Source: a virus
IMG/VR virus record: IMGVR_UViG_3300000116_000136
Length of the DNA stretch: 29,128 nt
Direction: 5' to 3' (one strand)
Positions 1-29,128 of this stretch are shown here, piece by piece. Position numbers and translations under genes: made by a program. A model generated the notes under the pieces. That model saw nothing but the letters and a program-made list of their open reading frames with translations. It was not told where the DNA came from and searched no databases. Numbering within the stretch: position 1 is the stretch's first letter; each line of letters opens with the position of its first letter.

Positions 1-401
1 GCTTTAATAGCTATACGCTCATTGTCAGCAGCTCTGTACATTTTTATTACGTCATTACCGCCTTTACCTAGTGGTGCATCGTTAGATAGCGTACCAGCTT
101 CGTCTGGGTCTAAGTGCATAATGATAGTAAAGGCATCTAAATTTAACTGTGTTTCTAAACCTAAAAATTGCCTTACACCATCGAAAGTTACTCTACCATT
201 TGTTGTACTCGTTGGCTGGTTTGCACTCGTAGGTTGTATCGCATCGTTACCGTTAGCAGACTGGTCAGCCCACGAAGTTACCGAATCGCCAGACTTTGTT
301 ACGCCTACGCCAGACCTTAGCCATACTTCTAAACCCTCAAAATCTAAAGGGCTAAACGCTTTTAGTCTATTGTTAAGTTTTAAAGAGTTGCCTAACTGCA
401 T
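1..401 (-). CDS. LamG-like protein, N-terminal part only (second copy of 27812..28212, cut by the window edge)
   Basis: Lies inside the terminal repeat. Same sequence as the 5' part of the intact gene 27508..28212, with ATG at 401. Confidence 0.6.
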   Translation of the reverse strand, partial: MQLGNSLKLNNRLKAFSPLDFEGLEVWLRSGVGVTKSGDSVTSWADQSANGNDAIQPTSANQPTSTTNGRVTFDGVRQFLGLETQLNLDAFTIIMHLDPDEAGTLSNDAPLGKGGNDVIKMYRAADNERIAIK

Positions 402-402
402 A

Positions 403-669
403 CTAGTTGTTATAACCTATTGCTAAACCGCTAGTTAAATCTATTGCAGTAAATGGTGCGAATATAACCGTACCAGCTGGTATAGTTTTTCCATCTAAAT
501 TACTGTCGTTAGTTGCACCAGTTATAGTACAATTTGTTATAACGCTATCGTTTACAAAATGTACCGCATAGAAGTCTTTAGAAGTCTGTGCAGCAGTTGT
601 AAATACCTCTACCGTTCCTTTTTTACCTAACTGCTCGTTAAGTAAGTCTACTGTGTTTTTTACTGCCAT
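403..669 (-). CDS. Hypothetical small beta-rich virion-module protein (88 aa)
   Basis: ATG start. A 4-nt gap follows the upstream gene's stop (674) and 1 nt separates its own stop from the downstream ATG (401). Non-repetitive composition. No family recognised. Confidence 0.7.
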   Translation of the reverse strand: MAVKNTVDLLNEQLGKKGTVEVFTTAAQTSKDFYAVHFVNDSVITNCTITGATNDSNLDGKTIPAGTVIFAPFTAIDLTSGLAIGYNN

Positions 670-673
670 TTTA

Positions 674-1105
674 TTATAGTTTTGGTAATTTGTTTACAAA
701 TTTTATAAAAGTATCTGCATCTTTTTGTAAATCGTCAGAAATTTTAATAGTGTTGTTATATAAAGAATAATCTAACAAATCGTTTGAATTTATATCTACA
801 CCTAATTCTTTAGCTAATTTACGTGCTTTATCTACTTTAGTTTCTACATCGCTTTCTGCTGCACGTAATTCTTTTGCATATTTTGACATATTTGCAATAT
901 CGCCTTTTAGTTCGTTTGTAGCTTTTTCTATTTCTCTTACTGGCACGTATGCGTTGTTTATAAAGTTATCAGCTTCTTTACGTAGCTTTACAAATTTGTC
1001 TAACGCTTTTTTTGCATCGTCAATTACTGCAAACTCTACCTTTTGTGATTTTAGCGTAATTCTATCTAATTCGCTTTTGACCTTATTTTCAAAATTTAAA
1101 TCCAT
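674..1105 (-). CDS. Coiled-coil protein, paralog family member P1 (143 aa)
   Basis: ATG joined to the upstream stop by a TAATG overlap. Has N-terminal KSQKVEFAVIDD and distal AKELGV motifs shared with ORFs 3797..4180, 24945..25295 and 25298..25648. Heptad-like, K/E-rich. Confidence 0.75.
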   Translation of the reverse strand: MDLNFENKVKSELDRITLKSQKVEFAVIDDAKKALDKFVKLRKEADNFINNAYVPVREIEKATNELKGDIANMSKYAKELRAAESDVETKVDKARKLAKELGVDINSNDLLDYSLYNNTIKISDDLQKDADTFIKFVNKLPKL

Positions 1106-1515
1106 TATAGTTTAATGTATGATGTGTTATTATTCGTTGTGTTTGTGTTGTCAGTTGGCGTGTATTGTGTGTAACTTACTTCTGTTACGTTATTATCTTT
1201 AACAAACGCCTTGCCTTTCTCTACTATGCTACTTGTTGCTAATCCAGTATCGTTAGTTAAACTATTGCTAGTTACCTCATATATCGTATAAGTCCAAAAA
1301 CCACCCTCTGTTAAAGTTATGTCTGTACCCTCTATTAATCTGATGTTAGTATAACGAGCGTAACCAGTAATAGCACCGTAACCGTATTTAGCTTTATTAG
1401 TCATATCGTTTACAAACTTACATAAATAATAAATAGTAGTGCCAGTAGCGTAAACTTTTTTCTCGTTTAGCGTAACTGGTAAATCGTTTGTAGTGCCTCT
1501 AACTATATGTAGCAT
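1105..1515 (-). CDS. Hypothetical virion-module protein (136 aa) with Thr/Asn-rich C-terminus
   Basis: ATG start. First ORF after the terminator at 1558..1585. No family recognised. Confidence 0.7.
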   Translation of the reverse strand: MLHIVRGTTNDLPVTLNEKKVYATGTTIYYLCKFVNDMTNKAKYGYGAITGYARYTNIRLIEGTDITLTEGGFWTYTIYEVTSNSLTNDTGLATSSIVEKGKAFVKDNNVTEVSYTQYTPTDNTNTTNNNTSYIKL

Positions 1516-1557: not shown

Positions 1558-1585
1558 AAAAAAAAAGGGCAAAAGCCCTCTTTTT
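1558..1585 (-). terminator. Rho-independent terminator with bidirectional geometry
   Basis: Plus strand reads A9-GGGC-AAAA-GCCC-TC-T5. On the minus strand this gives stem GAGGGC/GCCCTT, a 4-nt loop and a U9 tract. Sits 18 nt after the stop of 1604..2155. Confidence 0.75.
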
Positions 1586-5087: not shown

Positions 5088-6794
5088 TTAAATTGTTGCT
5101 TTACGTCTTATTTTTGTTAATTTATCTTGTTCTCGGCTCATATCGTCAGCTACTACAAAGGCTTTAACTACGCCACCAGTTGTACCGCCTACACCCTCGC
5201 TACCAGCAAAAGCACGACCGCCACCAGCTTCGTTCATAGCACTAAGTAATGGTTTAAACATACTTGTACTACGTGCGTTAATTACGCTTTCGCCATTTGA
5301 TAGCCTAGCATTTACGCTATCGCTAGTACCAGTACCAGTACCGTTAATTAAACCACCTTGTGCGTATGATGGTGTAGGTGTGCTTGCTATTTTATTTATA
5401 TTAGCTATACCAGCTGCTACCGTAGTCGCTGCTAAAATCGGACCTAAAAGGGGACCAGCACCTACTGGTGGCGGTGCAAGTGCAGCAGCAGCACCCATAT
5501 ACGTATTAATTGTAGCTTGTAATATACCAGCCACTTTAGCTATTTCACTCTCTTCGCCAGCAGCAGACTTAATGTTGTCTAAACTATCGCTTATTATGTC
5601 AGCATCAGTTTGTGCTTGCCCTAGTTTGATGTTGGATATTGCATTTGCTTTTTGTTGCTCTAATGCTATTGTATCTTGCCCAGCTTTTTCAGCTAACCTA
5701 AATAACTCTGCGTAATGTTGCTCTACTTCTAATAGTTCACGCTCTCTATCGCTTACACCTTCTGCTGCTAATTCTTTTTTAACGTCTTGTAGTTCACGTT
5801 GTAACGATACTTCGTTTGTTAGTTGCTCACTTCTAAAACCAGTTATCTGTGCTTCGATAGCCATTAACTCATTTTGTGCTTCTGTAAGTGCTATAAGGTT
5901 TTCTTGGTTTTGCAGCTTATCAAATTCTACTTGTGCAGCCTTAACTTGTATCTGTTGTAAAGCTAACATCTGCGTAGCTTGTTCTTCTAAAACTCTGCCT
6001 AATTCTTCGTTAGCTTTTATACGGTCTGCAAATGTAGCGTTTTCGTCATCTCTTACTTGTCGTAGTAATTCAGCTTGTCTATCATATTTTTCAATTAAAC
6101 CTTGTATCTGCACCGCACTAAGTTCGGCTTGCTTGCCTAGTTCTACGTTTGCTGATGCACTTTTTACTGTTTCTTTAGTGTAATTTACTACTGCGGTTGT
6201 AACATTTGTAAATGTTTCTGCCACCTTATCTACTGTGCCATCTACGCCAGTAAATACGTCTACCATTTCTTTACCAGCTTCTTTAGCTAATGCACTCGCA
6301 GCTTGAAACTCGCCAGCAAATAGTAATTTAAACGCAGAACCTAATAAGCCAGTAACTTCTATTATGCTTAATATTCTTTCTTCTATATTTTTTACTAAGG
6401 CATCAGAAAATTTTTGAAAAGTTGCTATTGGGTTACCAAAAGTATCGTTGAAAAAAGATTGTACAGTACCAAAATTTTCTACTACAAAATTTACAAAATC
6501 GTTCGTAGCTATACTTAAAACTTCAAAAGCAGTATTGAAAAAATCTAAAGTTCTTTGGTTGTTGCCTACTACTTCTTGTAAAGCTGAAAACGCTTTAATG
6601 GCTAAACCTAAACCAGCAGCTTTTAATGCTAAACCTACACCTTTAATAGCAGCTAGAAAACCAGTCGTAGACTTTGCAGTCTGCGAAGATGCTACACCTA
6701 TACCTACTACTGCGGTTTTAACCTCTTCTAACTCTCTTTTAGCATCGCTAACATCAGTTACTAGCTTTAATATTACCTCTTCTTTTGTTGCCAT
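5088..6794 (-). CDS. Tape-measure-like protein, or internal/ejection protein (568 aa)
   Basis: N-terminal hydrophobic Gly/Ala segments, a long coiled-coil middle, a second hydrophobic Ala/Gly/Pro segment, then GGLINGTGTGTSDSVNARLSNGESVINA. That last motif is common near the C-terminus of tape-measure proteins. Confidence 0.5.
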   Translation of the reverse strand: MATKEEVILKLVTDVSDAKRELEEVKTAVVGIGVASSQTAKSTTGFLAAIKGVGLALKAAGLGLAIKAFSALQEVVGNNQRTLDFFNTAFEVLSIATNDFVNFVVENFGTVQSFFNDTFGNPIATFQKFSDALVKNIEERILSIIEVTGLLGSAFKLLFAGEFQAASALAKEAGKEMVDVFTGVDGTVDKVAETFTNVTTAVVNYTKETVKSASANVELGKQAELSAVQIQGLIEKYDRQAELLRQVRDDENATFADRIKANEELGRVLEEQATQMLALQQIQVKAAQVEFDKLQNQENLIALTEAQNELMAIEAQITGFRSEQLTNEVSLQRELQDVKKELAAEGVSDRERELLEVEQHYAELFRLAEKAGQDTIALEQQKANAISNIKLGQAQTDADIISDSLDNIKSAAGEESEIAKVAGILQATINTYMGAAAALAPPPVGAGPLLGPILAATTVAAGIANINKIASTPTPSYAQGGLINGTGTGTSDSVNARLSNGESVINARSTSMFKPLLSAMNEAGGGRAFAGSEGVGGTTGGVVKAFVVADDMSREQDKLTKIRRKATI

Positions 6795-6907
6795 TTGCCT
6801 ATTTTTTTGTGTTTGTATTTTGTAATTGATGGTAGCGTGTCTTTAAGTGCAGAAAAACCTAAACTTATTACATCGCCAGCTAACTTAAATTTTATTACTT
6901 TTTCCAT
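6773..6907 (-). CDS. Possible micro-ORF (44 aa, basic C-terminus), absent from the ORF track
   Basis: My translation: MEKVIKFKLAGDVISLGFSALKDTLPSITKYKHKKIGKWQQKKR. Its ATG overlaps the upstream stop as TAATG. It fills an otherwise empty 112-nt gap and overlaps the next gene by 22 nt. Confidence 0.35.
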   Translation of the reverse strand: MEKVIKFKLAGDVISLGFSALKDTLPSITKYKHKKIGKWQQKKR

Positions 6908-12302: not shown

Positions 12303-12785
12303 TTATTGTAATTCGTTACACGCACTTGCGTTAAAATCTACGTTAATTGTTATGTTACCAGTCCATCCACTTACTTCGTTGTCAAATCGTTCTGTAAATG
12401 GTTCACACGCTATACTGTCTTGTATTCTAACTGCGTGTCTAAAATCGTCATCGTAATCAGTATTAAAGTCTGTGTTTTTAAGCTGGCTAATAACATCGCC
12501 TATAACTTGTAGCATATCGCTTAATACGTCCTCTTCGTTGCTCTCGTCTTTACTTACTAAGTCCATTACTATTACTTGAAAATTGTAAGTTAATACATTT
12601 TTCGTGTAGCTTGCGGTCTGTGTACCTACGTGCATTAATGGATAAGTAGTTTCTGTTAAGTCTATTTCGAAAATGTCGCCTATTGTCGTAGTCTGTATAA
12701 ATACATTATTATTACCTACGCTTTTAAACATATCGTATAACATATTTAGTGTTACGTTCTTTATCTGTTTACCTTTATATATCAT
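12303..12785 (-). CDS. Hypothetical structural (neck/tail) protein (160 aa)
   Basis: Its ATG forms an ATGA overlap with the stop of the -1 frame extension of the upstream gene. Confidence 0.6.
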   Translation of the reverse strand: MIYKGKQIKNVTLNMLYDMFKSVGNNNVFIQTTTIGDIFEIDLTETTYPLMHVGTQTASYTKNVLTYNFQVIVMDLVSKDESNEEDVLSDMLQVIGDVISQLKNTDFNTDYDDDFRHAVRIQDSIACEPFTERFDNEVSGWTGNITINVDFNASACNELQ

Positions 12786-13033
12786 TTCTTTTTCTGTATG
12801 TGTGCTAAATCTTTTTGGTATGCTATAAAATTAAAGCATTCGTTTACTGTTAAGTTTAGCACTCTGTCAAATTCTAAAATATTACCGTTAGCCAAATTAT
12901 AGATAATACTATACCAGCCATACCTTTCGCTAAACGCTTCCTCATCTGTCTTATAATCGACCGCCTCTTCGCTCTCGGTTGACTGTTTAAAGATTGTTGC
13001 GTAATGGCTATGTAGTCCATCCCTATACTCAAA
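12782..13033 (-). other. -1 frame extension (83 codons) continuing the upstream gene from the U9 run; would give a 257-aa fusion protein
   Basis: My translation: FEYRDGLHSHYATIFKQSTESEEAVDYKTDEEAFSERYGWYSIIYNLANGNILEFDRVLNLTVNECFNFIAYQKDLAHIQKKK. It ends in a TGA that overlaps the next ATG as ATGA. Confidence 0.6.
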
Positions 13034-13554
13034 AAAAAAGCGGATGCACCATTAACTGTATTAACACTTAGTCTAGTCTTAAATAGTTCAGCACGCTCTT
13101 TAGCAGTTCTAAAGTCGTACTCTTCTATCTCGTACTTATCGCCATCTGTTTCTGTAATCGGTCTGTACAGTATAGCCATTACACTAGCCATATCAGACCA
13201 TCCATTTGTTAGCTTGTTATCTAAATCTACAAACTCTTTTAATTTTAACTCGTGTAAATTAGGGTGTAAACCGTAATCTATATCGTCTATGGTTACAATT
13301 AAATTTAAGTCTTGGTTTATTGTTTTTTCTGTTAAACTATTTAACTCTTCTAATACCGCATCTATATCGGACTTCTTACACCCCTCTAATAATTCTAGTG
13401 GTGCTTTAGTAAAGGCGTTAATTGTTATAAGTTGCTTAGACAATTCGTCTGGTGCATTTTCGTATGCTACCATAAAATCCATATAACTACCTAGACTGAC
13501 CTCATTCCAGTCTTGCGGTATGTAATAATTGTTGTCGTTGATAACTAGTTTCAT
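12874..13554 (-). CDS. Zero-frame product (226 aa) of the first gene after terL; tail-assembly-chaperone-like N-terminus
   Basis: ATG at 13554. After the U9 run, the 0-frame tail (LSIGMDYIAITQQSLNSQPRAKRRSIIRQMRKRLAKGMAGIVLSIIWLTVIF) looks like out-of-frame sequence and leaves an 88-nt gap before the next gene. Confidence 0.55.
   Translation of the reverse strand: MKLVINDNNYYIPQDWNEVSLGSYMDFMVAYENAPDELSKQLITINAFTKAPLELLEGCKKSDIDAVLEELNSLTEKTINQDLNLIVTIDDIDYGLHPNLHELKLKEFVDLDNKLTNGWSDMASVMAILYRPITETDGDKYEIEEYDFRTAKERAELFKTRLSVNTVNGASAFFLSIGMDYIAITQQSLNSQPRAKRRSIIRQMRKRLAKGMAGIVLSIIWLTVIF
13031..13039 (-). promoter_or_regulatory. Slippery homopolymer (U9 on the mRNA) in register GC[U UUU UUU]UUG
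   Basis: Nine A on the plus strand. Codon phase was checked against the track protein (...NGASAFFLS...). Confidence 0.6.
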
Positions 13555-13643: not shown

Positions 13644-14948
13644 TTATTGTACATAGTATTGCCCTTGCGGTTTTAACTCGTAATACATACGCATTGCTAA
13701 CGCATCGCTAAAGTCTGGCGAACGTCCAATAGCTAACTTTACTTCGTCCTTACTTATCAGTTGTAGCTTAGTATCTTTATCGAAATTCTTACGCCTTACT
13801 TGTTCTAGTTCTTGTATAATAAAATTCTTGTGCGTTATATTGTTACAGTTAATATACACCTCAGACTTGTTTAAAGCGTTGCTAAGAGCGTAATAGCATT
13901 GTGTCTTTAAGTTAGTATAGTTTTCGCCTCGTAATGCCTTAGAGTTGTTTACAAAACCTTTACACCTTAGTATGTCTTTTACACCACCACCTACGCCATC
14001 GTCATCGACTATAATATTACCCAGTTGTACGCTATGTAATCGTTGTAGCGTTCTTATTTCTTCTGCTGCCTCTACAACACTATTAGTGTCTAGCACCTTA
14101 AAGTATTCGGCTCGTAGACCATTCCAGTATATAATTACAGTTTTGTCTTTACCGTAGCGTGCTATATCAGCGGTTATGTAACCTTTGCCAGTCTTAGTGT
14201 CTTGTAATTCAAAAGAACCTAAAATAGCGTTGTAGTCTATTAGCTTATCTTCGCTATCGTCATACTCCCAGTTCCCCAGCAGTAGCCTTTGCTTACTTAC
14301 GTAGTCTAGTTTTTCTAGTTGTTGCTTATAGTGTTTAGATACGTGCTTATTGTCGCTTAGTAATGATTGTATAAATTTTCTGTATTCTGGTAGTGTGTTT
14401 TCTTTGCTCGGCTTATAGAAGCTGGTGTACACCCATTCCTTAGATGGGTTGCAAGTCATTAACATCTTAGGTATTAAATTATATTCGTCTAGCTTGTACC
14501 TAATTCTACTGCCTACTATTTGTTTAGCTTTTTCTGTTATCTGGTTACACTCGTCTACAAATACTGCGGTAAGTTCTAAACTACCTAGACTATCAAAGTT
14601 CCTATCGCTAGGGTATTGAAACAAATCTTTTAGTATTACTTCGCTACCATTGTAAAAGGTTATTACGTTAGTGCTGGCGTTATACTTGTAGTGTACGTTA
14701 GCTTTGATATTCCACGAAGCACACACCTCGAAAAAGGTAGCTAGGGTGGTTTTCTTTAAGGTGTCTAACTTACTACGACCTATTAAGCACCGTATGCCAT
14801 CGTAAGAAGTGCATAGTGTTATAATCCACGCACAACCTAAGTAAGACTTGCCACCACCAGCACCGCCACCGTATAGCAGTTCTGTCGTGGTATCGTCTGT
14901 TAGATACTTTAGGGCTTGCCCTTGTTTACTCGTTAGTGTCGCTATCAA
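13644..14948 (-). CDS. terL: Terminase large subunit
   Basis: Walker A GGGAGGGKS and Walker B AVFVDE. C-terminal nuclease-type acidic motifs ITADIARYGKD, IVDDDGVGGGV and SPDFSDALAM. The start codon at 14948 is TTG, and there is no in-frame ATG before Walker A. Confidence 0.9.
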   Translation of the reverse strand: MIATLTSKQGQALKYLTDDTTTELLYGGGAGGGKSYLGCAWIITLCTSYDGIRCLIGRSKLDTLKKTTLATFFEVCASWNIKANVHYKYNASTNVITFYNGSEVILKDLFQYPSDRNFDSLGSLELTAVFVDECNQITEKAKQIVGSRIRYKLDEYNLIPKMLMTCNPSKEWVYTSFYKPSKENTLPEYRKFIQSLLSDNKHVSKHYKQQLEKLDYVSKQRLLLGNWEYDDSEDKLIDYNAILGSFELQDTKTGKGYITADIARYGKDKTVIIYWNGLRAEYFKVLDTNSVVEAAEEIRTLQRLHSVQLGNIIVDDDGVGGGVKDILRCKGFVNNSKALRGENYTNLKTQCYYALSNALNKSEVYINCNNITHKNFIIQELEQVRRKNFDKDTKLQLISKDEVKLAIGRSPDFSDALAMRMYYELKPQGQYYVQ

Positions 14949-22153: not shown

Positions 22154-22193
22154 TTTATAAAGCTACTCTTTTATAAAGTTTTTTTTTGTAAAG
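22154..22193. repeat. Three iteron-like direct repeats TTT(A/G)TAAAG at 15-16 nt spacing
   Basis: Copies at 22154..22162, 22170..22178 and 22185..22193, with a related AATAAAG at about 22222. Confidence 0.5.
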
Positions 22194-25652: not shown

Positions 25653-27497
25653 TTAATATCCTTTTTTATTTACAAATCCATTTTTAGGCATACGCTTCGG
25701 TGCTACTGGTACTTTTTGGTCGTTTACTTCTGGCTTAAAACCTTGACTACGTGCCTTAGTAGTAGTTATAGTTTTGTCTGCACTACTCGGTCTTGCACCA
25801 GCTTGTATATAAATACGTCTAAACCATTTATGATGACAATTACCACCGCCTTTAAAATGCCATATACTATAAGTATCAGCACCATTTAAGCCCCAGCCTT
25901 TATTTACTGGCATAGTACCCATACGTAAAATATCTTCTTTACGGTACACTTTTTTGGCTGCGGTCATTTTACTACAAAATTCTCTTTGTTCGCCACTACT
26001 ACGTGTTAAGCCTTTATCTTCTGTGTACACGTAACGCACTCTATATTTAGTTTTATGCGTTTGTGTGCTTTCGCCATCTTGCTTACTCTTAGCGTTTGGT
26101 ATTGCCCTACCAGTAGTAGCTAGTTCTAATTTTTCTAAATTGTATTCAAAGTCAAAATCTTCGTGTTCGCCCTCCGCATCCTCTTCGTCTATTAATTGCC
26201 AGTCGTCAAGGTTTTCATCTTCGCCAAACTCTGCAAGAAAACTATCTAATTCTGTTAGCTTGCTAAAGTTTTGCTCTTCGGCTACTGTTTCTTCTTGTTT
26301 TTCTAAAGGCTCAAATCCTAATTGCTCACGTATTTCGTCTTGCGTTAACACTTCTTTTAACGTATCAGCATCAAATATAGAATTTAGCGGCTGCACGTCT
26401 TTTATGCTAAACGAACAAGTTATACCATTTATGTTTAAAAGCTTCTTAAAAGTCTTTAAAATGGTATTCTGGAACGGTTTTACGACCGTATTCATATATA
26501 GCTCGTATGCTTGTGTAAGTTCGTTACGCCCACCTAATTGCCCTTCTGTCTTAACTCCTAATAACATAGGGCTTGTAACTCGGTGTCCTATCATTATATT
26601 CTGTATCGTCAGTTCGTTTAAAACTGTGTACTGTTTGTCAGCATCAGATACTTGTATAGGTAAAATTTCTGGCTTGCTCTGTGCATCGTCTGAAAATGTA
26701 AGTACAAATTTACCAGCGTTATTAGCACCAGTAAACTTTTTAGTAATTTGATTTTCTATCTGTACCCTCTCTTCACGACTGGGTACGCCATTCGCAAAGT
26801 TAATAAAGTAGCTACCAGAAAAACCGTTAGCTATATTGTTTAAATGATAGTCAGCAGTTAAATTATCTATCTGCACCCAGTTAGTAGAAGCTACGTAGTC
26901 TGGCGTGTGGTACAATTCCATAGCTGGACTGTATAGACCACTATAAAGTAATTGGCTACCCTCGCTTCTATCCATCATATTAAACGCAGTTATACGTTTT
27001 GGTGCGTATTCTTTTTTACGATATTGCGACCAGTCAGCAGAAACGTAATACGCTTCTACCTTGCCATCTTCGTTAGGTACACCTACACGTATCTGTTCTA
27101 CTGGTATGTGGTAAACCTCTGCTATCTTAGTCTTATCTTTAGACCATATTATATTTAAAGCGTAACCGCCTTGTAGTTTTAAATCAAAAGCTAGTTTAAC
27201 AAAAATTTCGTGTGCAGTTTCTTCGCTATTAACCGCACCTAGAAACTTCTTTAAAGCTACATACTGCGTTAAATCTTTACTATCTTCTACTATAAATTCT
27301 TCGCCAGCTATCATAGCAGACGTAGCATTAATAACAGAAGCGTGTGTAGCACTATTGTTATATAAATCTATAAGGTATTTAGGGTAGTTGTTTCTGTATT
27401 CGCCATCTCCGTAACCTATCCACTCTGCACCGCCTACCTCTATTGTTTTCGGTTGTACTTCGTTAGTTAAATTTATATTTATTAATCTATCTTTCAT
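25653..27497 (-). CDS. Portal protein fused to a C-terminal MuF-like (head morphogenesis) domain
   Basis: N-terminal ~400 aa show a portal pattern: YGDGEYRNNYPKYLIDLYNNSATHASVINATSAMIAGEEF, NGFSGSYFINF, FTGANNAGKF, IMIGHRVTSPMLLG. After an acidic linker, REFCSKM...VYRKEDI...PVNKGWG...YSIWHFKGGGNCHHKW resembles the Mu F / SPP1 gp7 C-terminal motif. The track start at 27527 is GTG; the ATG at 27497, 10 nt after the LamG stop, is preferred. Confidence 0.75.
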   Translation of the reverse strand: MKDRLININLTNEVQPKTIEVGGAEWIGYGDGEYRNNYPKYLIDLYNNSATHASVINATSAMIAGEEFIVEDSKDLTQYVALKKFLGAVNSEETAHEIFVKLAFDLKLQGGYALNIIWSKDKTKIAEVYHIPVEQIRVGVPNEDGKVEAYYVSADWSQYRKKEYAPKRITAFNMMDRSEGSQLLYSGLYSPAMELYHTPDYVASTNWVQIDNLTADYHLNNIANGFSGSYFINFANGVPSREERVQIENQITKKFTGANNAGKFVLTFSDDAQSKPEILPIQVSDADKQYTVLNELTIQNIMIGHRVTSPMLLGVKTEGQLGGRNELTQAYELYMNTVVKPFQNTILKTFKKLLNINGITCSFSIKDVQPLNSIFDADTLKEVLTQDEIREQLGFEPLEKQEETVAEEQNFSKLTELDSFLAEFGEDENLDDWQLIDEEDAEGEHEDFDFEYNLEKLELATTGRAIPNAKSKQDGESTQTHKTKYRVRYVYTEDKGLTRSSGEQREFCSKMTAAKKVYRKEDILRMGTMPVNKGWGLNGADTYSIWHFKGGGNCHHKWFRRIYIQAGARPSSADKTITTTKARSQGFKPEVNDQKVPVAPKRMPKNGFVNKKGY

Positions 27498-27507
27498 TTT
27501 TTTATTT

Positions 27508-28212
27508 TTAGACTGCTTGTACCGCACTTTCGCACCTAGTTAAATCAGTACCTACTAACTCACTTTTAAAAATGGCTACACTTAAAATGTCTCCACTATA
27601 CTGTGTGCTAGCTATTGCACCGCTACCTATTTGTGTTACGTCAAATACATCACTAATAGCAGACGTTACACTACCACTTTCTACACCGTTTAACCTTACC
27701 TTAAATACGTTGCTTGTAGTTCTTATGCAAGTTAATAAAAATGGTTGCGTAGGAAAAGATACATCTTCGCTATCTTGTTGCATCGGGTTAATTTCAGACT
27801 GTACGCCATTTGCTTTAATAGCTATACGCTCATTGTCAGCAGCTCTGTACATTTTTATTACGTCATTACCGCCTTTACCTAGTGGTGCATCGTTAGATAG
27901 CGTACCAGCTTCGTCTGGGTCTAAGTGCATAATGATAGTAAAGGCATCTAAATTTAACTGTGTTTCTAAACCTAAAAATTGCCTTACACCATCGAAAGTT
28001 ACTCTACCATTTGTTGTACTCGTTGGCTGGTTTGCACTCGTAGGTTGTATCGCATCGTTACCGTTAGCAGACTGGTCAGCCCACGAAGTTACCGAATCGC
28101 CAGACTTTGTTACGCCTACGCCAGACCTTAGCCATACTTCTAAACCCTCAAAATCTAAAGGGCTAAACGCTTTTAGTCTATTGTTAAGTTTTAAAGAGTT
28201 GCCTAACTGCAT
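27508..28212 (-). CDS. LamG / concanavalin-A-like jelly-roll domain protein (234 aa), probable virion or host-recognition component
   Basis: LEVWLRS......GDSVTSWADQSANGNDAIQPTSANQP.....NGRVTFDGVRQFL is the typical Laminin_G_3-type N-terminal signature. Confidence 0.65.
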   Translation of the reverse strand: MQLGNSLKLNNRLKAFSPLDFEGLEVWLRSGVGVTKSGDSVTSWADQSANGNDAIQPTSANQPTSTTNGRVTFDGVRQFLGLETQLNLDAFTIIMHLDPDEAGTLSNDAPLGKGGNDVIKMYRAADNERIAIKANGVQSEINPMQQDSEDVSFPTQPFLLTCIRTTSNVFKVRLNGVESGSVTSAISDVFDVTQIGSGAIASTQYSGDILSVAIFKSELVGTDLTRCESAVQAV

Positions 28213-28213
28213 A

Positions 28214-28480
28214 CTAGTTGTTATAACCTATTGCTAAACCGCTAGTTAAATCTATTGCAGTAAATGGTGCGAATATAACCGTACCAGCTGGTATAGTTTT
28301 TCCATCTAAATTACTGTCGTTAGTTGCACCAGTTATAGTACAATTTGTTATAACGCTATCGTTTACAAAATGTACCGCATAGAAGTCTTTAGAAGTCTGT
28401 GCAGCAGTTGTAAATACCTCTACCGTTCCTTTTTTACCTAACTGCTCGTTAAGTAAGTCTACTGTGTTTTTTACTGCCAT
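28214..28480 (-). CDS. Duplicate copy of 403..669 (88 aa)
   Basis: Identical protein in the ORF track. Confidence 0.7.
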   Translation of the reverse strand: MAVKNTVDLLNEQLGKKGTVEVFTTAAQTSKDFYAVHFVNDSVITNCTITGATNDSNLDGKTIPAGTVIFAPFTAIDLTSGLAIGYNN

Positions 28481-28484
28481 TTTA

Positions 28485-28916
28485 TTATAGTTTTGGTAAT
28501 TTGTTTACAAATTTTATAAAAGTATCTGCATCTTTTTGTAAATCGTCAGAAATTTTAATAGTGTTGTTATATAAAGAATAATCTAACAAATCGTTTGAAT
28601 TTATATCTACACCTAATTCTTTAGCTAATTTACGTGCTTTATCTACTTTAGTTTCTACATCGCTTTCTGCTGCACGTAATTCTTTTGCATATTTTGACAT
28701 ATTTGCAATATCGCCTTTTAGTTCGTTTGTAGCTTTTTCTATTTCTCTTACTGGCACGTATGCGTTGTTTATAAAGTTATCAGCTTCTTTACGTAGCTTT
28801 ACAAATTTGTCTAACGCTTTTTTTGCATCGTCAATTACTGCAAACTCTACCTTTTGTGATTTTAGCGTAATTCTATCTAATTCGCTTTTGACCTTATTTT
28901 CAAAATTTAAATCCAT
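28485..28916 (-). CDS. Duplicate copy of 674..1105 (coiled-coil paralog P1)
   Basis: Identical protein in the ORF track. Confidence 0.75.
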   Translation of the reverse strand: MDLNFENKVKSELDRITLKSQKVEFAVIDDAKKALDKFVKLRKEADNFINNAYVPVREIEKATNELKGDIANMSKYAKELRAAESDVETKVDKARKLAKELGVDINSNDLLDYSLYNNTIKISDDLQKDADTFIKFVNKLPKL

Positions 28917-29128
28917 TATAGTTTAATGTATGATGTGTTATTATTCGTTGTGTTTGTGTTGTCAGTTGGCGTGTATTGTGTGTAACTTACTTCTGTTACG
29001 TTATTATCTTTAACAAACGCCTTGCCTTTCTCTACTATGCTACTTGTTGCTAATCCAGTATCGTTAGTTAAACTATTGCTAGTTACCTCATATATCGTAT
29101 AAGTCCAAAAACCACCCTCTGTTAAAGT
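28916..29128 (-). CDS. 3' part of the duplicate copy of 1105..1515, truncated by the window end
   Basis: Sequence identical to 1105..1317. Confidence 0.6.
   Translation of the reverse strand, partial: TLTEGGFWTYTIYEVTSNSLTNDTGLATSSIVEKGKAFVKDNNVTEVSYTQYTPTDNTNTTNNNTSYIKL

What the first reader, a model, noticed from the sequence alone, without database searches (positions are those of the whole stretch)
12782..13554. U9 slippery run in the gene after terL: the -1 frame closes the only large gap and ends in an ATGA overlap
The coding strand has nine consecutive U (13031..13039) in the register GC[U UUU UUU]UUG, a perfect X XXY YYZ heptamer.

- **Zero frame:** it runs 52 more codons through an Arg/Lys-rich then hydrophobic tail that looks out of frame. 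It stops at 12874 and leaves 88 nt with no ORF, in an operon where genes otherwise abut or overlap.
- **-1 frame:** it stays open for 83 codons with protein-like sequence (…RYGWYSIIYNLANGNILEFDRVLNLTVNECFNFIAYQKD…). It terminates in a TGA that overlaps the ATG of the next gene as ATGA, the coupling used throughout this genome.

Three explanations fit: programmed -1 ribosomal frameshifting as in tail-assembly-chaperone G/GT pairs, transcriptional slippage on a 9-nt homopolymer, or a homopolymer undercall (true T10). If recoding is real it is unusual, because the gene is not next to the tape-measure-like gene and the zero frame does not stop soon after the slip site.
Basis: partly seen in the sequence, partly recalled or inferred. 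Interest (0 to 1): 0.75.

Follow-up and report, generated by a model that had tools for sequence, protein, structure and literature searches.

The report
Conserved T9 recoding site, phage gene
A run of exactly nine T's inside the gene after the terminase is a real, strictly conserved signal that lets a large family of aquatic phages make a short and a long version of one assembly protein; current annotations miss it, and it may work through RNA polymerase slippage rather than the ribosome.

Summary
The minus-strand gene 13554..12874 carries T9 at 13031..13039. The zero frame stops at TAG 12876..12874. The -1 frame stays open to TGA 12784..12782, which overlaps the next ATG.

It is not a homopolymer undercall.
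- Exactly nine T's occur in 78 of 79 IMG/VR relatives (30-68% aa identity) and in cultured Nonlabens phages P12024S/L, where the two parts are annotated as separate genes (gp38, gp39).
- The -1 frame encodes a conserved ~80-aa domain with codon periodicity and no start codon of its own.
- In 12 loci a -1-frame stop abuts the run, which pins the shift there.
- Distant relatives encode N+C as one ORF without any run.
- The fused protein models as one compact fold (pLDDT 88, pTM 0.83).

So this is programmed recoding that gives a short (~215-226 aa) and a long (257 aa) isoform.

The mechanism is unresolved. T9 matches the RNA-DNA hybrid length, is kept in two codon registers and has no downstream structure. 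I favour RNA-polymerase slippage adding one U (~0.5) over -1 ribosomal frameshifting as in P2 E/E' (~0.4).

The function is unknown: novel fold, no Pfam family, not next to the tape measure gene. It resembles a tail assembly chaperone only in its expression logic.

The parts
12874..13554 (-). Zero-frame ORF of gene X (226 aa; the short isoform). It comprises the N-domain (residues 1-174), a conserved ~17-residue continuation and a variable tail.
   Evidence: Matches PHROG 32199 (function unknown) over residues 48-195, E 2e-7. More than 100 homologues of ~215 aa stop in the same frame.
13031..13039 (-). T9 (U9) homopolymer: the recoding site. The zero-frame register is GCT TTT TTT TTG.
   Evidence: Exactly T9 in 78 of 79 related loci, and entropy is zero at all nine positions. 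A -1-frame stop directly abuts the run in 12 of 69 non-redundant loci. T10 variants read as one continuous ORF.
12782..13039 (-). -1-frame extension (FFFEYRDG...IQKKK plus TGA). This is the C-terminal domain of the 257-aa long isoform.
   Evidence: The domain is conserved in 63 non-redundant relatives. Codon-position diversity shows the -1 frame is the coding frame. It has no start codon of its own. It is modelled with pLDDT 87-96, packed onto the N-domain.
12877..13030 (-). Overlap zone read in both frames. Dual constraint is visible only in the first ~10-20 codons after the run; the rest of the zero frame is largely a by-product of the acidic -1-frame linker.
12782..12785 (-). ATGA overlap: the stop of the long isoform overlaps the start of the downstream 160-aa gene.
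   Evidence: An ATGA or TAATG overlap recurs in many of the related loci.
12303..12785 (-). Downstream 160-aa gene, positioned for termination-reinitiation coupling to the long isoform only.
   Evidence: The coupling itself is an inference from the ATGA overlap.
13644..14948 (-). Terminase large subunit, immediately upstream. It is separated from gene X by an 89-nt intergenic spacer.
   Evidence: PF04466, PF03237, PHROG 2.

Best explanation
Gene X is a morphogenesis-operon gene of unknown fold that lies directly after terL. It is expressed as two N-coterminal proteins from one start codon.

- Short isoform: decoding the genomic frame gives the N-domain plus a short conserved continuation (226 aa here, ~215 aa in close relatives).
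- Long isoform: a shift of one base at the T9 run joins the N-domain to a conserved ~80-aa C-terminal domain (257 aa). This is the ancestral, complete form of the protein.

I commit to the following route for the shift. The host RNA polymerase slips on the nine-base dA:rU hybrid and adds one extra U to a fraction of transcripts (U10). Ordinary translation of those transcripts then gives the long form.

Ribosomes on U10 transcripts terminate at the ATGA and can reinitiate on the next gene. Ribosomes on U9 transcripts stop 88 nt upstream.

What is shown:
- the site;
- its conservation;
- the coding status of both frames;
- the single-ORF ancestors;
- the compact fold of the fusion.

What is inferred:
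- that the shift is transcriptional rather than ribosomal;
- the downstream coupling;
- any role in tail assembly.

Confidence that recoding at the run is real is about 0.95. Confidence that RNA-polymerase slippage is the main route is about 0.5.
For: Recoding is real.
- The run is T9 in 78 of 79 IMG/VR loci at 30-68% aa identity, and in cultured phages P12024S and P12024L.
- The -1 peptide is a conserved domain: FF[FL]x[YF]R...K[WY]GWY..I..LA.GD...EC[LF].[FW]L.Y..D.
- Codon-position diversity in the -1 frame is 0.22-0.33 / 0.11-0.24 / 0.47-0.50, and this pattern appears even before the zero-frame stop.
- A -1-frame stop abuts the run in 12 of 69 loci.
- The C-domain has no start codon of its own.
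- Distant relatives (P0137, P0182, P0220) carry N+C in one ORF with no FF motif at the junction. For P0137 the DNA was read and shows no T run.
- The AlphaFold model of the fusion has pLDDT 88.3 and pTM 0.83.

Evidence favouring polymerase slippage.
- All nine T's are invariant in two different codon registers, NNT TTT TTT TTR and NTT TTT TTT TNN.
- This includes the wobble base of six different codons (AAT, ACT, AGT, GCT, GGT, TGT) and the first base of variable codons (TAY, TCN, TGC, TGG). A heptamer would need only seven T's.
- Nine is the length at which bacterial RNA polymerase slips efficiently. It equals the 9-10 bp RNA-DNA hybrid. It is the length used in Thermus dnaX (Atkins et al. 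2016, PMC5009743, sections 30 and 43). Atkins et al. also describe slippage in Shigella spa13 and mxiE (section 23).
- No downstream stimulatory structure is present: window z = 0.17, and the mean z over 61 loci is +0.22.
- Adding one T restores a single ORF (L014, L083, L084).
- In spa13/spa32 and mxiE, the slippage-dependent extension overlaps or affects the next gene. The ATGA overlap here is a parallel.
Against: - There are no transcript data, so the polymerase-versus-ribosome question is not tested.
- The run contains perfect in-phase heptamers: U_UUU_UUU in both registers, and U_UUU_UUG in the window's clade.
- P2 E/E+E' frameshifts ribosomally on TTTTTTG without any downstream structure (PMC3091744).
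- Part of the T conservation could come from protein constraints. Hydrophobic codons carry T at position 2, and both frames are read just after the run.
- To my knowledge, slippage by Bacteroidota RNA polymerase has not been characterised.
- A hairpin next to the run, which can stimulate slippage, is only weakly enriched (51% of loci versus 27% in shuffles; mean z -0.27). Much of that is explained by the local GC content.
Confidence: 0.5

Rival explanations
1. Programmed -1 ribosomal frameshifting. tRNA-Phe (and tRNA-Leu) slip back one base on U_UUU_UUU or U_UUU_UUG, as in the phage P2 E/E+E' and lambda G/GT tail assembly chaperone pairs. This would give a few per cent of the long isoform from uniform U9 mRNA.
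For: - In-phase X_XXY_YYZ heptamers are present in both registers.
- P2 uses TTTTTTG with no downstream hairpin.
- Phage frameshift sites often lack stimulators (Atkins 2016, section 6).
- The two-isoform logic in a late structural operon matches G/GT.
Against: - Only seven T's are needed, yet nine are invariant in two registers.
- No downstream structure is present.
- The zero-frame stop lies 26-61 codons after the site, whereas the mean is 26 nt in SEA-PHAGES chaperone genes (PMC10274946).
- Relatives make 100% long form from a single ORF. A few-per-cent route would be a drastic drop in the amount of long form.
- Polymerase slippage on T9 is expected in any case.
Confidence: 0.4
2. A DNA-level contingency switch. 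The homopolymer changes length during replication (T9 to T10 or T7), so individual phage genomes make either the short or the long form, and the population holds both.
For: T10 was found in three assemblies (L014, L083, L084) and T7 in one (L082).
Against: - 78 of 79 loci have T9.
- The T7 contig comes from an assembly whose contig name ends in '_pilon', most likely long-read (my inference), and the L083 T10 contig has 4.9x coverage. Both are error-prone settings.
- Cluster representatives probably favour the longest member, which would inflate the count of fused forms (my inference).
- A fixed T9 with both frames conserved implies that both forms are needed in each infection.
Confidence: 0.05
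3. Sequencing or assembly undercall in this window (the true sequence is T10, giving a plain 257-aa ORF), or a decaying pseudogene.
For: Homopolymers are error-prone. T10 would give a clean ORF ending in ATGA.
Against: - The same T9 appears in dozens of independent metagenomes and in two isolate genomes.
- More than 100 homologous proteins stop in the zero frame.
- The start of the zero-frame continuation is conserved.
- The gene is under purifying selection on both sides of the run.
Confidence: 0.02

Closest known systems
Tail assembly chaperone pairs made by -1 frameshifting (lambda G/GT; P2 E/E+E', slip site TTTTTTG)
   Same: - Two proteins share an N-terminus and are produced from one start by a -1 shift in a late morphogenesis operon of a long-tailed phage.
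- The slip site is T-rich, as in P2.
- No downstream stimulatory structure is present.
   Different: - The gene lies directly after terL. It is about 6 kb and six large ORFs (plus a 44-aa ORF) away from the tape measure gene.
- The zero frame continues for 26-61 codons.
- The run is nine T's, not a heptamer.
- There is no Pfam Phage_TAC hit beyond one faint E = 0.15 match in 1 of 27 members.
- hhalign against the P2 gpE family gives probability <1%.
- Foldseek finds no PDB match.
- Distant relatives encode the long form as a plain ORF.
Programmed transcriptional slippage on A/T runs in bacteria (Thermus thermophilus dnaX; Shigella flexneri spa13 and mxiE)
   Same: - A nine-base A/T run sits inside an ORF, as in Thermus dnaX.
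- One added nucleotide gives access to a C-terminal extension.
- In spa13/spa32 and mxiE the extension's end overlaps the next gene, or slippage affects the next gene's expression (PMC5009743, sections 23, 30, 43). This parallels the ATGA overlap here.
- The run length is conserved independently of codon register.
   Different: - The gene belongs to a phage morphogenesis operon, and the host is a member of the Flavobacteriia.
- Nothing has been measured at the RNA level.
- The site is also a perfect ribosomal slip site.
Nonlabens (Persicivirga) phage P12024S gp38 + gp39 and P12024L gp40 + gp41 (PHROG 32199 + PHROG 38404)
   Same: - These are direct homologues in a collinear genome: terL, then X, then the rest.
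- They carry the same T9 followed by the same -1-frame domain.
   Different: - They share only ~19-28% identity.
- They are annotated as two separate hypothetical proteins with no recoding noted.
- gp39 is annotated from an internal ATG that the window's gene lacks.

Membership tests
Tail assembly chaperone G/GT (lambda / P2 type) | [quoted passage not shown] | tested here: met
   A conserved slip site and a conserved -1 ORF are present. The products themselves have not been observed.
Tail assembly chaperone G/GT (lambda / P2 type) | The gene lies between the tail tube gene and the tape measure gene. | tested here: not met
   The gene directly follows terL. The TMP-like gene is at 5088..6794, with six large ORFs and a 44-aa ORF in between. 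The order is the same in P12024S.
Tail assembly chaperone G/GT (lambda / P2 type) | Sequence or fold similarity to known chaperone families (Pfam Phage_TAC_*, gpE). | tested here: not met
   - No Pfam hit. One member of 27 gives a faint PF10109 match at E = 0.15.
- hhalign against a P2 gpE alignment gives probability <1%; that profile is shallow, Neff 1.3.
- Foldseek against the PDB finds nothing.
- Only weak leads remain: a BFVD hit to one protein annotated as a TAC at E = 0.011, and one relative hitting PHROG 166 'tail protein' at E = 8e-6.
Tail assembly chaperone G/GT (lambda / P2 type) | The short form binds the tape measure protein; the extension binds the tail tube protein; both are absent from virions. 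| not testable with these tools
   This needs pull-downs and virion proteomics with phage P12024S.
Programmed transcriptional slippage site | A homopolymeric A or T run of about nine or more bases inside the ORF. | tested here: met
   T9 at 13031..13039. The threshold is taken from PMC5009743, section 43.
Programmed transcriptional slippage site | The run length is conserved among homologues, beyond what the codons require. | tested here: met
   Entropy is zero at all nine positions in 71 non-redundant sequences, across two registers and variable flanking codons.
Programmed transcriptional slippage site | A heterogeneous mRNA population (U10, U11 and so on) arising from a uniform DNA template. 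| not testable with these tools
   No transcriptome data are available here.
Canonical -1 programmed ribosomal frameshift signal | An X_XXY_YYZ heptamer in the zero-frame register. | tested here: met
   GC[U UUU UUU] UUG, and U_UUU_UUG one codon further on. In the other clade the register is NU[U UUU UUU].
Canonical -1 programmed ribosomal frameshift signal | A stimulatory hairpin or pseudoknot 5-9 nt downstream. This is common but not obligatory. | tested here: not met
   The window's z-score is 0.17. Over 61 loci the mean z is +0.22 downstream, against -0.16 for control windows.
PHROG 32199 / PHROG 38404 (function unknown) | A significant profile match. | tested here: met
   The zero-frame protein matches PHROG 32199 at E = 2e-7. 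Reconstructed fusions from relatives match 32199, and some also match 38404.

The most novel reading that the evidence does not exclude
The T9 run is a programmed transcriptional-slippage site, acting through RNA polymerase rather than the ribosome. It is conserved across a very large family of aquatic phages, probably phages of Bacteroidota (about 2000 protein clusters at 50% identity).

On this reading it sets the ratio of two isoforms of a morphogenesis protein with a new fold. Through the ATGA overlap it also gates translation of the next gene.

As far as I know this would be the first such case in a dsDNA phage structural operon. It might also define a new, non-canonically placed class of tail assembly chaperone.
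Probability: 0.4. Interest if true: 0.75.

Novelty: new variant of a known kind. Interest (0 to 1): 0.6.

Why it matters
**Annotation.** Gene callers split or truncate this gene in many phage genomes and metagenome contigs, including the reference genomes of Nonlabens phages P12024S and P12024L (gp38/gp39, gp40/gp41). The complete 230-270-aa protein is therefore missing from the PHROG families that cover it, 32199 and 38404.

**Mechanism.** The site is a clean natural test of ribosomal frameshifting against RNA-polymerase slippage. It is a nine-T run, kept in two codon registers, without stimulatory structure. A cultured phage-host pair is available for the experiment. A positive result would extend programmed transcriptional slippage to phage morphogenesis.

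**Biology.** The family is very large: 2003 clusters at E <= 1e-3. The two-isoform logic in a siphovirus suggests an unrecognised assembly chaperone that sits away from the tape measure gene.

Tried and rejected
- **Search with the -1 peptide alone.** It found no candidates because of the word-index limit. This says nothing about the biology.
- **tblastn of the fused protein against GenBank phages.** No hit. The Nonlabens homologue was reached only through the capsid gene and through a more distant query.
- **Function by homology.** Pfam, PDB sequence profiles and Foldseek against the PDB with both models all gave nothing.
- **Tail assembly chaperone membership.** Comparison with a P2 gpE alignment gave hhalign probability <1%. 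I therefore do not file the gene as a TAC.
- **Downstream stimulatory RNA structure.** No signal.
- **Intrinsic terminator at the run.** None found.
- **Upstream hairpin next to the run.** It looked enriched against control sites in the same gene (51% versus 14%). Most of the effect disappears against composition-matched shuffles (27%; mean z -0.27), so it is left as inconclusive.
- **Long zero-frame extension as evidence that the short form's tail is selected.** Synonymous randomisation of the -1 frame shows the openness is largely a by-product (mean P = 0.44 of staying open for at least 26 codons). The exception is one clade with 57-61 codons.
Full report
**1. The observation**

On the minus strand, an ORF starts at ATG 13554, 89 nt after the terminase large-subunit gene (13644..14948; Pfam Terminase_3/6N). 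It reads GCT TTT TTT TTG across a run of nine T's at 13031..13039.
- The zero frame continues for 52 codons to TAG 12876..12874 (226 aa). It leaves 88 nt before the next gene.
- The -1 frame is open from the run to TGA 12784..12782, which overlaps ATG 12785..12783 of the next gene as ATGA.
- Adding one T gives a 257-aa protein.
- The -1 frame has no ATG, GTG or TTG before 12895, which is downstream of its most conserved motif.

A T9/A9 run in one window of this composition is not unusual: 3 were found against 5.07 expected. The case therefore rests on comparative evidence.

**2. It is not a sequencing error**

A search with the fused protein returned 120 homologues. More than 100 of them are ~215-aa proteins that match only residues 1-174, so they also stop in the zero frame.

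Eighty related IMG/VR loci at 30-68% identity were fetched; more than 580 exist.
- Of the 79 loci that cover the site, 78 have exactly nine T's and one (L014) has ten.
- In 71 non-redundant sequences the nine positions have zero entropy, while flanking positions have 0.6-1.9 bits.
- The -1 frame is open for 76-97 codons after the run in every locus.

The capsid gene led to cultured siphoviruses Nonlabens (Persicivirga) phage P12024S and P12024L, genus Inhavirus. Their genomes are collinear with the window.
- In P12024S, gp38 (175 aa), directly after terL, carries the same T9.
- The -1 frame from that run contains the separately annotated gp39.
- P12024L has the same run.

The rare continuous ORFs have weak support.
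- P0001 has T7, on a contig whose name ends in '_pilon', most likely a long-read assembly (my inference).
- P0003 has T10 on a contig with 4.9x coverage.
- P0132 has T10.

**3. Both reading frames**

*The -1 frame.* The -1 peptides of 63 non-redundant loci align as a conserved domain: FF[FL]x[YF]R....[YF]...F, then an acidic linker, then K[WY]GWY..I..LA.GD.LK...V.....EC[LF].[FW]L.Y..D.

In the window's clade, nucleotide diversity by codon position is as follows.

| Region | Position 1 | Position 2 | Position 3 |
|---|---|---|---|
| Upstream, zero frame | 0.36 | 0.26 | 0.52 |
| -1 frame, codons 31 onward | 0.22-0.33 | 0.11-0.24 | 0.47-0.50 |
| -1 frame, first 10 codons after the run | 0.36 | 0.22 | 0.36 |
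| -1 frame, codons 21-30 (linker) | 0.45 | 0.43 | 0.47 |

- From codon 31 onward the -1 frame shows clear coding periodicity, even before the zero-frame stop at codons 41-43.
- In the first 10 codons the -1-frame wobble diversity is depressed, as expected if both frames are constrained.
- Codons 21-30, the linker, are unconstrained.

*The zero frame.* The continuation is conserved for about 17 residues ([IL]G..[YL]...T..S[L]; I177 and Y181 are invariant in A1). After that it varies in sequence and length.
- Its Arg/Lys-rich stretch is the acidic -1-frame linker read out of phase.
- Synonymous randomisation of the -1 frame shows that the long open zero frame is largely a by-product. The mean probability of staying open for at least 26 codons is 0.44. 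The exception is one clade with 57-61 codons, where p < 0.01.

*Position of the shift.* In 12 of 69 non-redundant loci a -1-frame stop (for example TAG TTT TTT TTT) directly abuts the run. The shift can therefore only occur within the run.

**4. The long form is the complete protein**

A profile of three fused sequences found 2003 clusters (50% identity) at E <= 1e-3 in 1.84 billion representatives. Among the top 150 representatives:
- 120 have the N-domain only, and 113 of these have FF or FFF at the junction;
- 28 have N and C in one ORF.

Representatives are probably the longest cluster members, so fused forms are likely over-counted. This is my inference.

Three fused proteins (P0137, P0182, P0220) have no FF at the junction. 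The DNA of P0137 reads ACC TTT GTT AAA TAT TTA GAT TAC AGA, with no run. The N+C protein therefore exists as an ordinary gene in distant relatives.

With those relatives in the alignment, AlphaFold2 models the window's 257-aa fusion at pLDDT 88.3 and pTM 0.83. The C-domain scores 87-96, and only the linker (residues 191-200) is disordered. With a shallow alignment the C-part had been poorly modelled.

**5. What the protein is**

There is no Pfam family. The PHROG matches are to families of unknown function: 32199 (equivalent to gp38) and 38404 (equivalent to gp39). PDB sequence searches found nothing, and Foldseek against the PDB found nothing with either model.

Foldseek against BFVD finds 44 uncharacterised proteins of uncultured Caudovirales. 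These include P12024S gp38 and several 258-267-aa proteins that align over their full length.

Leads towards the tail are weak.
- One BFVD protein annotated as a tail assembly chaperone matches at E = 0.011.
- One relative hits PHROG 166 'tail protein' at E = 8e-6.
- One of 27 members gives a faint Phage_TAC_7 match at E = 0.15.

A direct test against an alignment of the P2 gpE family was negative, with hhalign probability <1%; that profile is shallow.

The N-domain may be an internal duplication of a beta-hairpin plus helices unit. hhalign of residues 1-80 against 81-175 gives E = 2.7e-4 and probability 42%.

The tape-measure-like gene is 5088..6794. Its product is helical and Gly/Ala-rich and matches TMP PHROGs. 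It lies about 6 kb downstream, after fibre-like genes, so gene X is not in the canonical tube-chaperone-tape measure position. The same is true in P12024S.

I conclude that the gene resembles a G/GT chaperone in its expression logic, but it fails the tested membership criteria. Its function is unknown. My estimate that it acts in tail assembly is about 0.4, and that is an inference.

**6. Mechanism**

Two routes give the same long protein.

*(a) RNA-polymerase slippage adding one U.*
- Bacterial RNA polymerase slips efficiently on runs of nine A's or T's.
- The RNA-DNA hybrid is 9-10 bp long.
- Thermus dnaX uses a nine-base run productively, and Shigella spa13 and mxiE also use slippage productively. 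In the Shigella cases the extension overlaps or affects the next gene (Atkins et al. 2016, PMC5009743, sections 23, 30, 43).

*(b) -1 ribosomal frameshifting on U_UUU_UUU or U_UUU_UUG.*
- P2 E/E+E' does this on TTTTTTG without any downstream structure (PMC3091744).

Evidence that leans towards (a):
- All nine T's are invariant in two codon registers. This includes a wobble base shared by six different codons and the first base of several different codons. A heptamer needs only seven.
- No downstream structure is present.
- The zero-frame stop is far from the site, unlike chaperone genes, where the mean distance is 26 nt (PMC10274946).
- Relatives make only the long form, which suggests it is needed in more than trace amounts.

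Evidence that leans towards (b), or is neutral:
- The heptamers are perfect and in phase.
- Some of the T conservation can be explained by hydrophobic codons and dual coding.
- There are no RNA data.
- A hairpin adjacent to the run is only weakly enriched.
- No terminator-like hairpin precedes the run.

I put slippage at about 0.5, PRF at about 0.4, a DNA-level switch at about 0.05 and sequencing error at about 0.02. Both slippage and PRF may contribute.

The ATGA overlap, which recurs in many relatives as ATGA or TAATG, implies something further. Only ribosomes making the long form terminate at the start of the next gene, so recoding may also set that gene's expression. This is an inference.

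**7. Novelty and verdict**

Recoding that yields two N-coterminal proteins in a phage late operon is a known kind of system. This instance differs in several respects.
- The signal is a strictly conserved nine-base homopolymer.
- The gene is not in the canonical position.
- The two frames overlap over a long stretch.
- The protein family has an unknown fold.
- Continuous-ORF relatives exist.

I found no report of this site in the searched literature, and the reference genomes annotate the two parts separately. I rate it a new variant of a known kind, with interest 0.6. A cultured phage-host pair makes the polymerase-versus-ribosome question directly testable.

Noticed in passing
window 1..1317 and 27812..29128: The two ends of the window are identical over 1317 nt. 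The window is therefore one complete genome of 27,811 bp (circular or terminally redundant) plus an assembly overlap. The 143-aa and 88-aa ORFs at both ends are the same genes.
   Followed up: yes
window, whole; compare L081 (Nonlabens phage P12024S): The module order is unusual and is shared with P12024S: terS, terL, X, three small genes, fibre-like genes of 469/734/264 aa, the tape measure gene, protease/scaffold, major capsid, and only later the portal (25653..27527). The tape measure gene follows the fibre-like genes, and the portal follows the capsid gene.
   Followed up: partly
window 1558..1566 (minus strand) and 22179..22187 (plus strand): These are the only other nine-base T runs in the window, and both are intergenic. 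On the coding strand, A runs stop at 7-8 bases inside genes. This fits avoidance of slippage-prone runs within ORFs.
   Followed up: partly
window 6773..6907 (minus strand): A 44-aa ORF (MEKVIKFKLAGDVISLGF...) fills the gap before the tape measure gene and overlaps its start by 22 nt. It contains an A7 run. P12024S has a 46-aa ORF (gp48) in the same position, also overlapping the TMP start by 22 nt, with no obvious sequence similarity.
   Followed up: partly
window 13040..13071 and the equivalent 32 nt in related loci: The 32 nt just upstream of the run are GC-rich (0.45 versus 0.35 for the gene). In 51% of loci they fold into a small hairpin ending within 3 nt of the run, against 27% in shuffles (mean z -0.27). 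This could be a weak slippage stimulator or just the Gly/Ala codons.
   Followed up: partly
window 13075..13554 (protein residues 1-80 versus 81-175): The N-domain appears to be an internal duplication of a beta-hairpin plus helices unit (LVINDNNYYIP..VSLGSYMDF and IVTIDDIDYGLHP..LKLKEFVDL). hhalign gives E = 2.7e-4 and probability 42%.
   Followed up: partly
L081 23136..23830 (NC_018271) and L086 401..1095 (NC_018272): The reference annotations of Nonlabens phages P12024S (gp38, gp39) and P12024L (gp40, gp41) list the two halves of this recoded gene as separate hypothetical proteins. PHROGs 32199 and 38404 inherit the split.
   Followed up: yes
window 12874..12903: The window's short isoform is 10 residues longer than that of most close relatives (226 versus 216 aa; P0002, P0004 and P0005 also have the longer form). 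The usual stop after ...AGIV is missing, which adds a hydrophobic LSIIWLTVIF tail. This is probably neutral drift in an unconstrained tail.
   Followed up: partly
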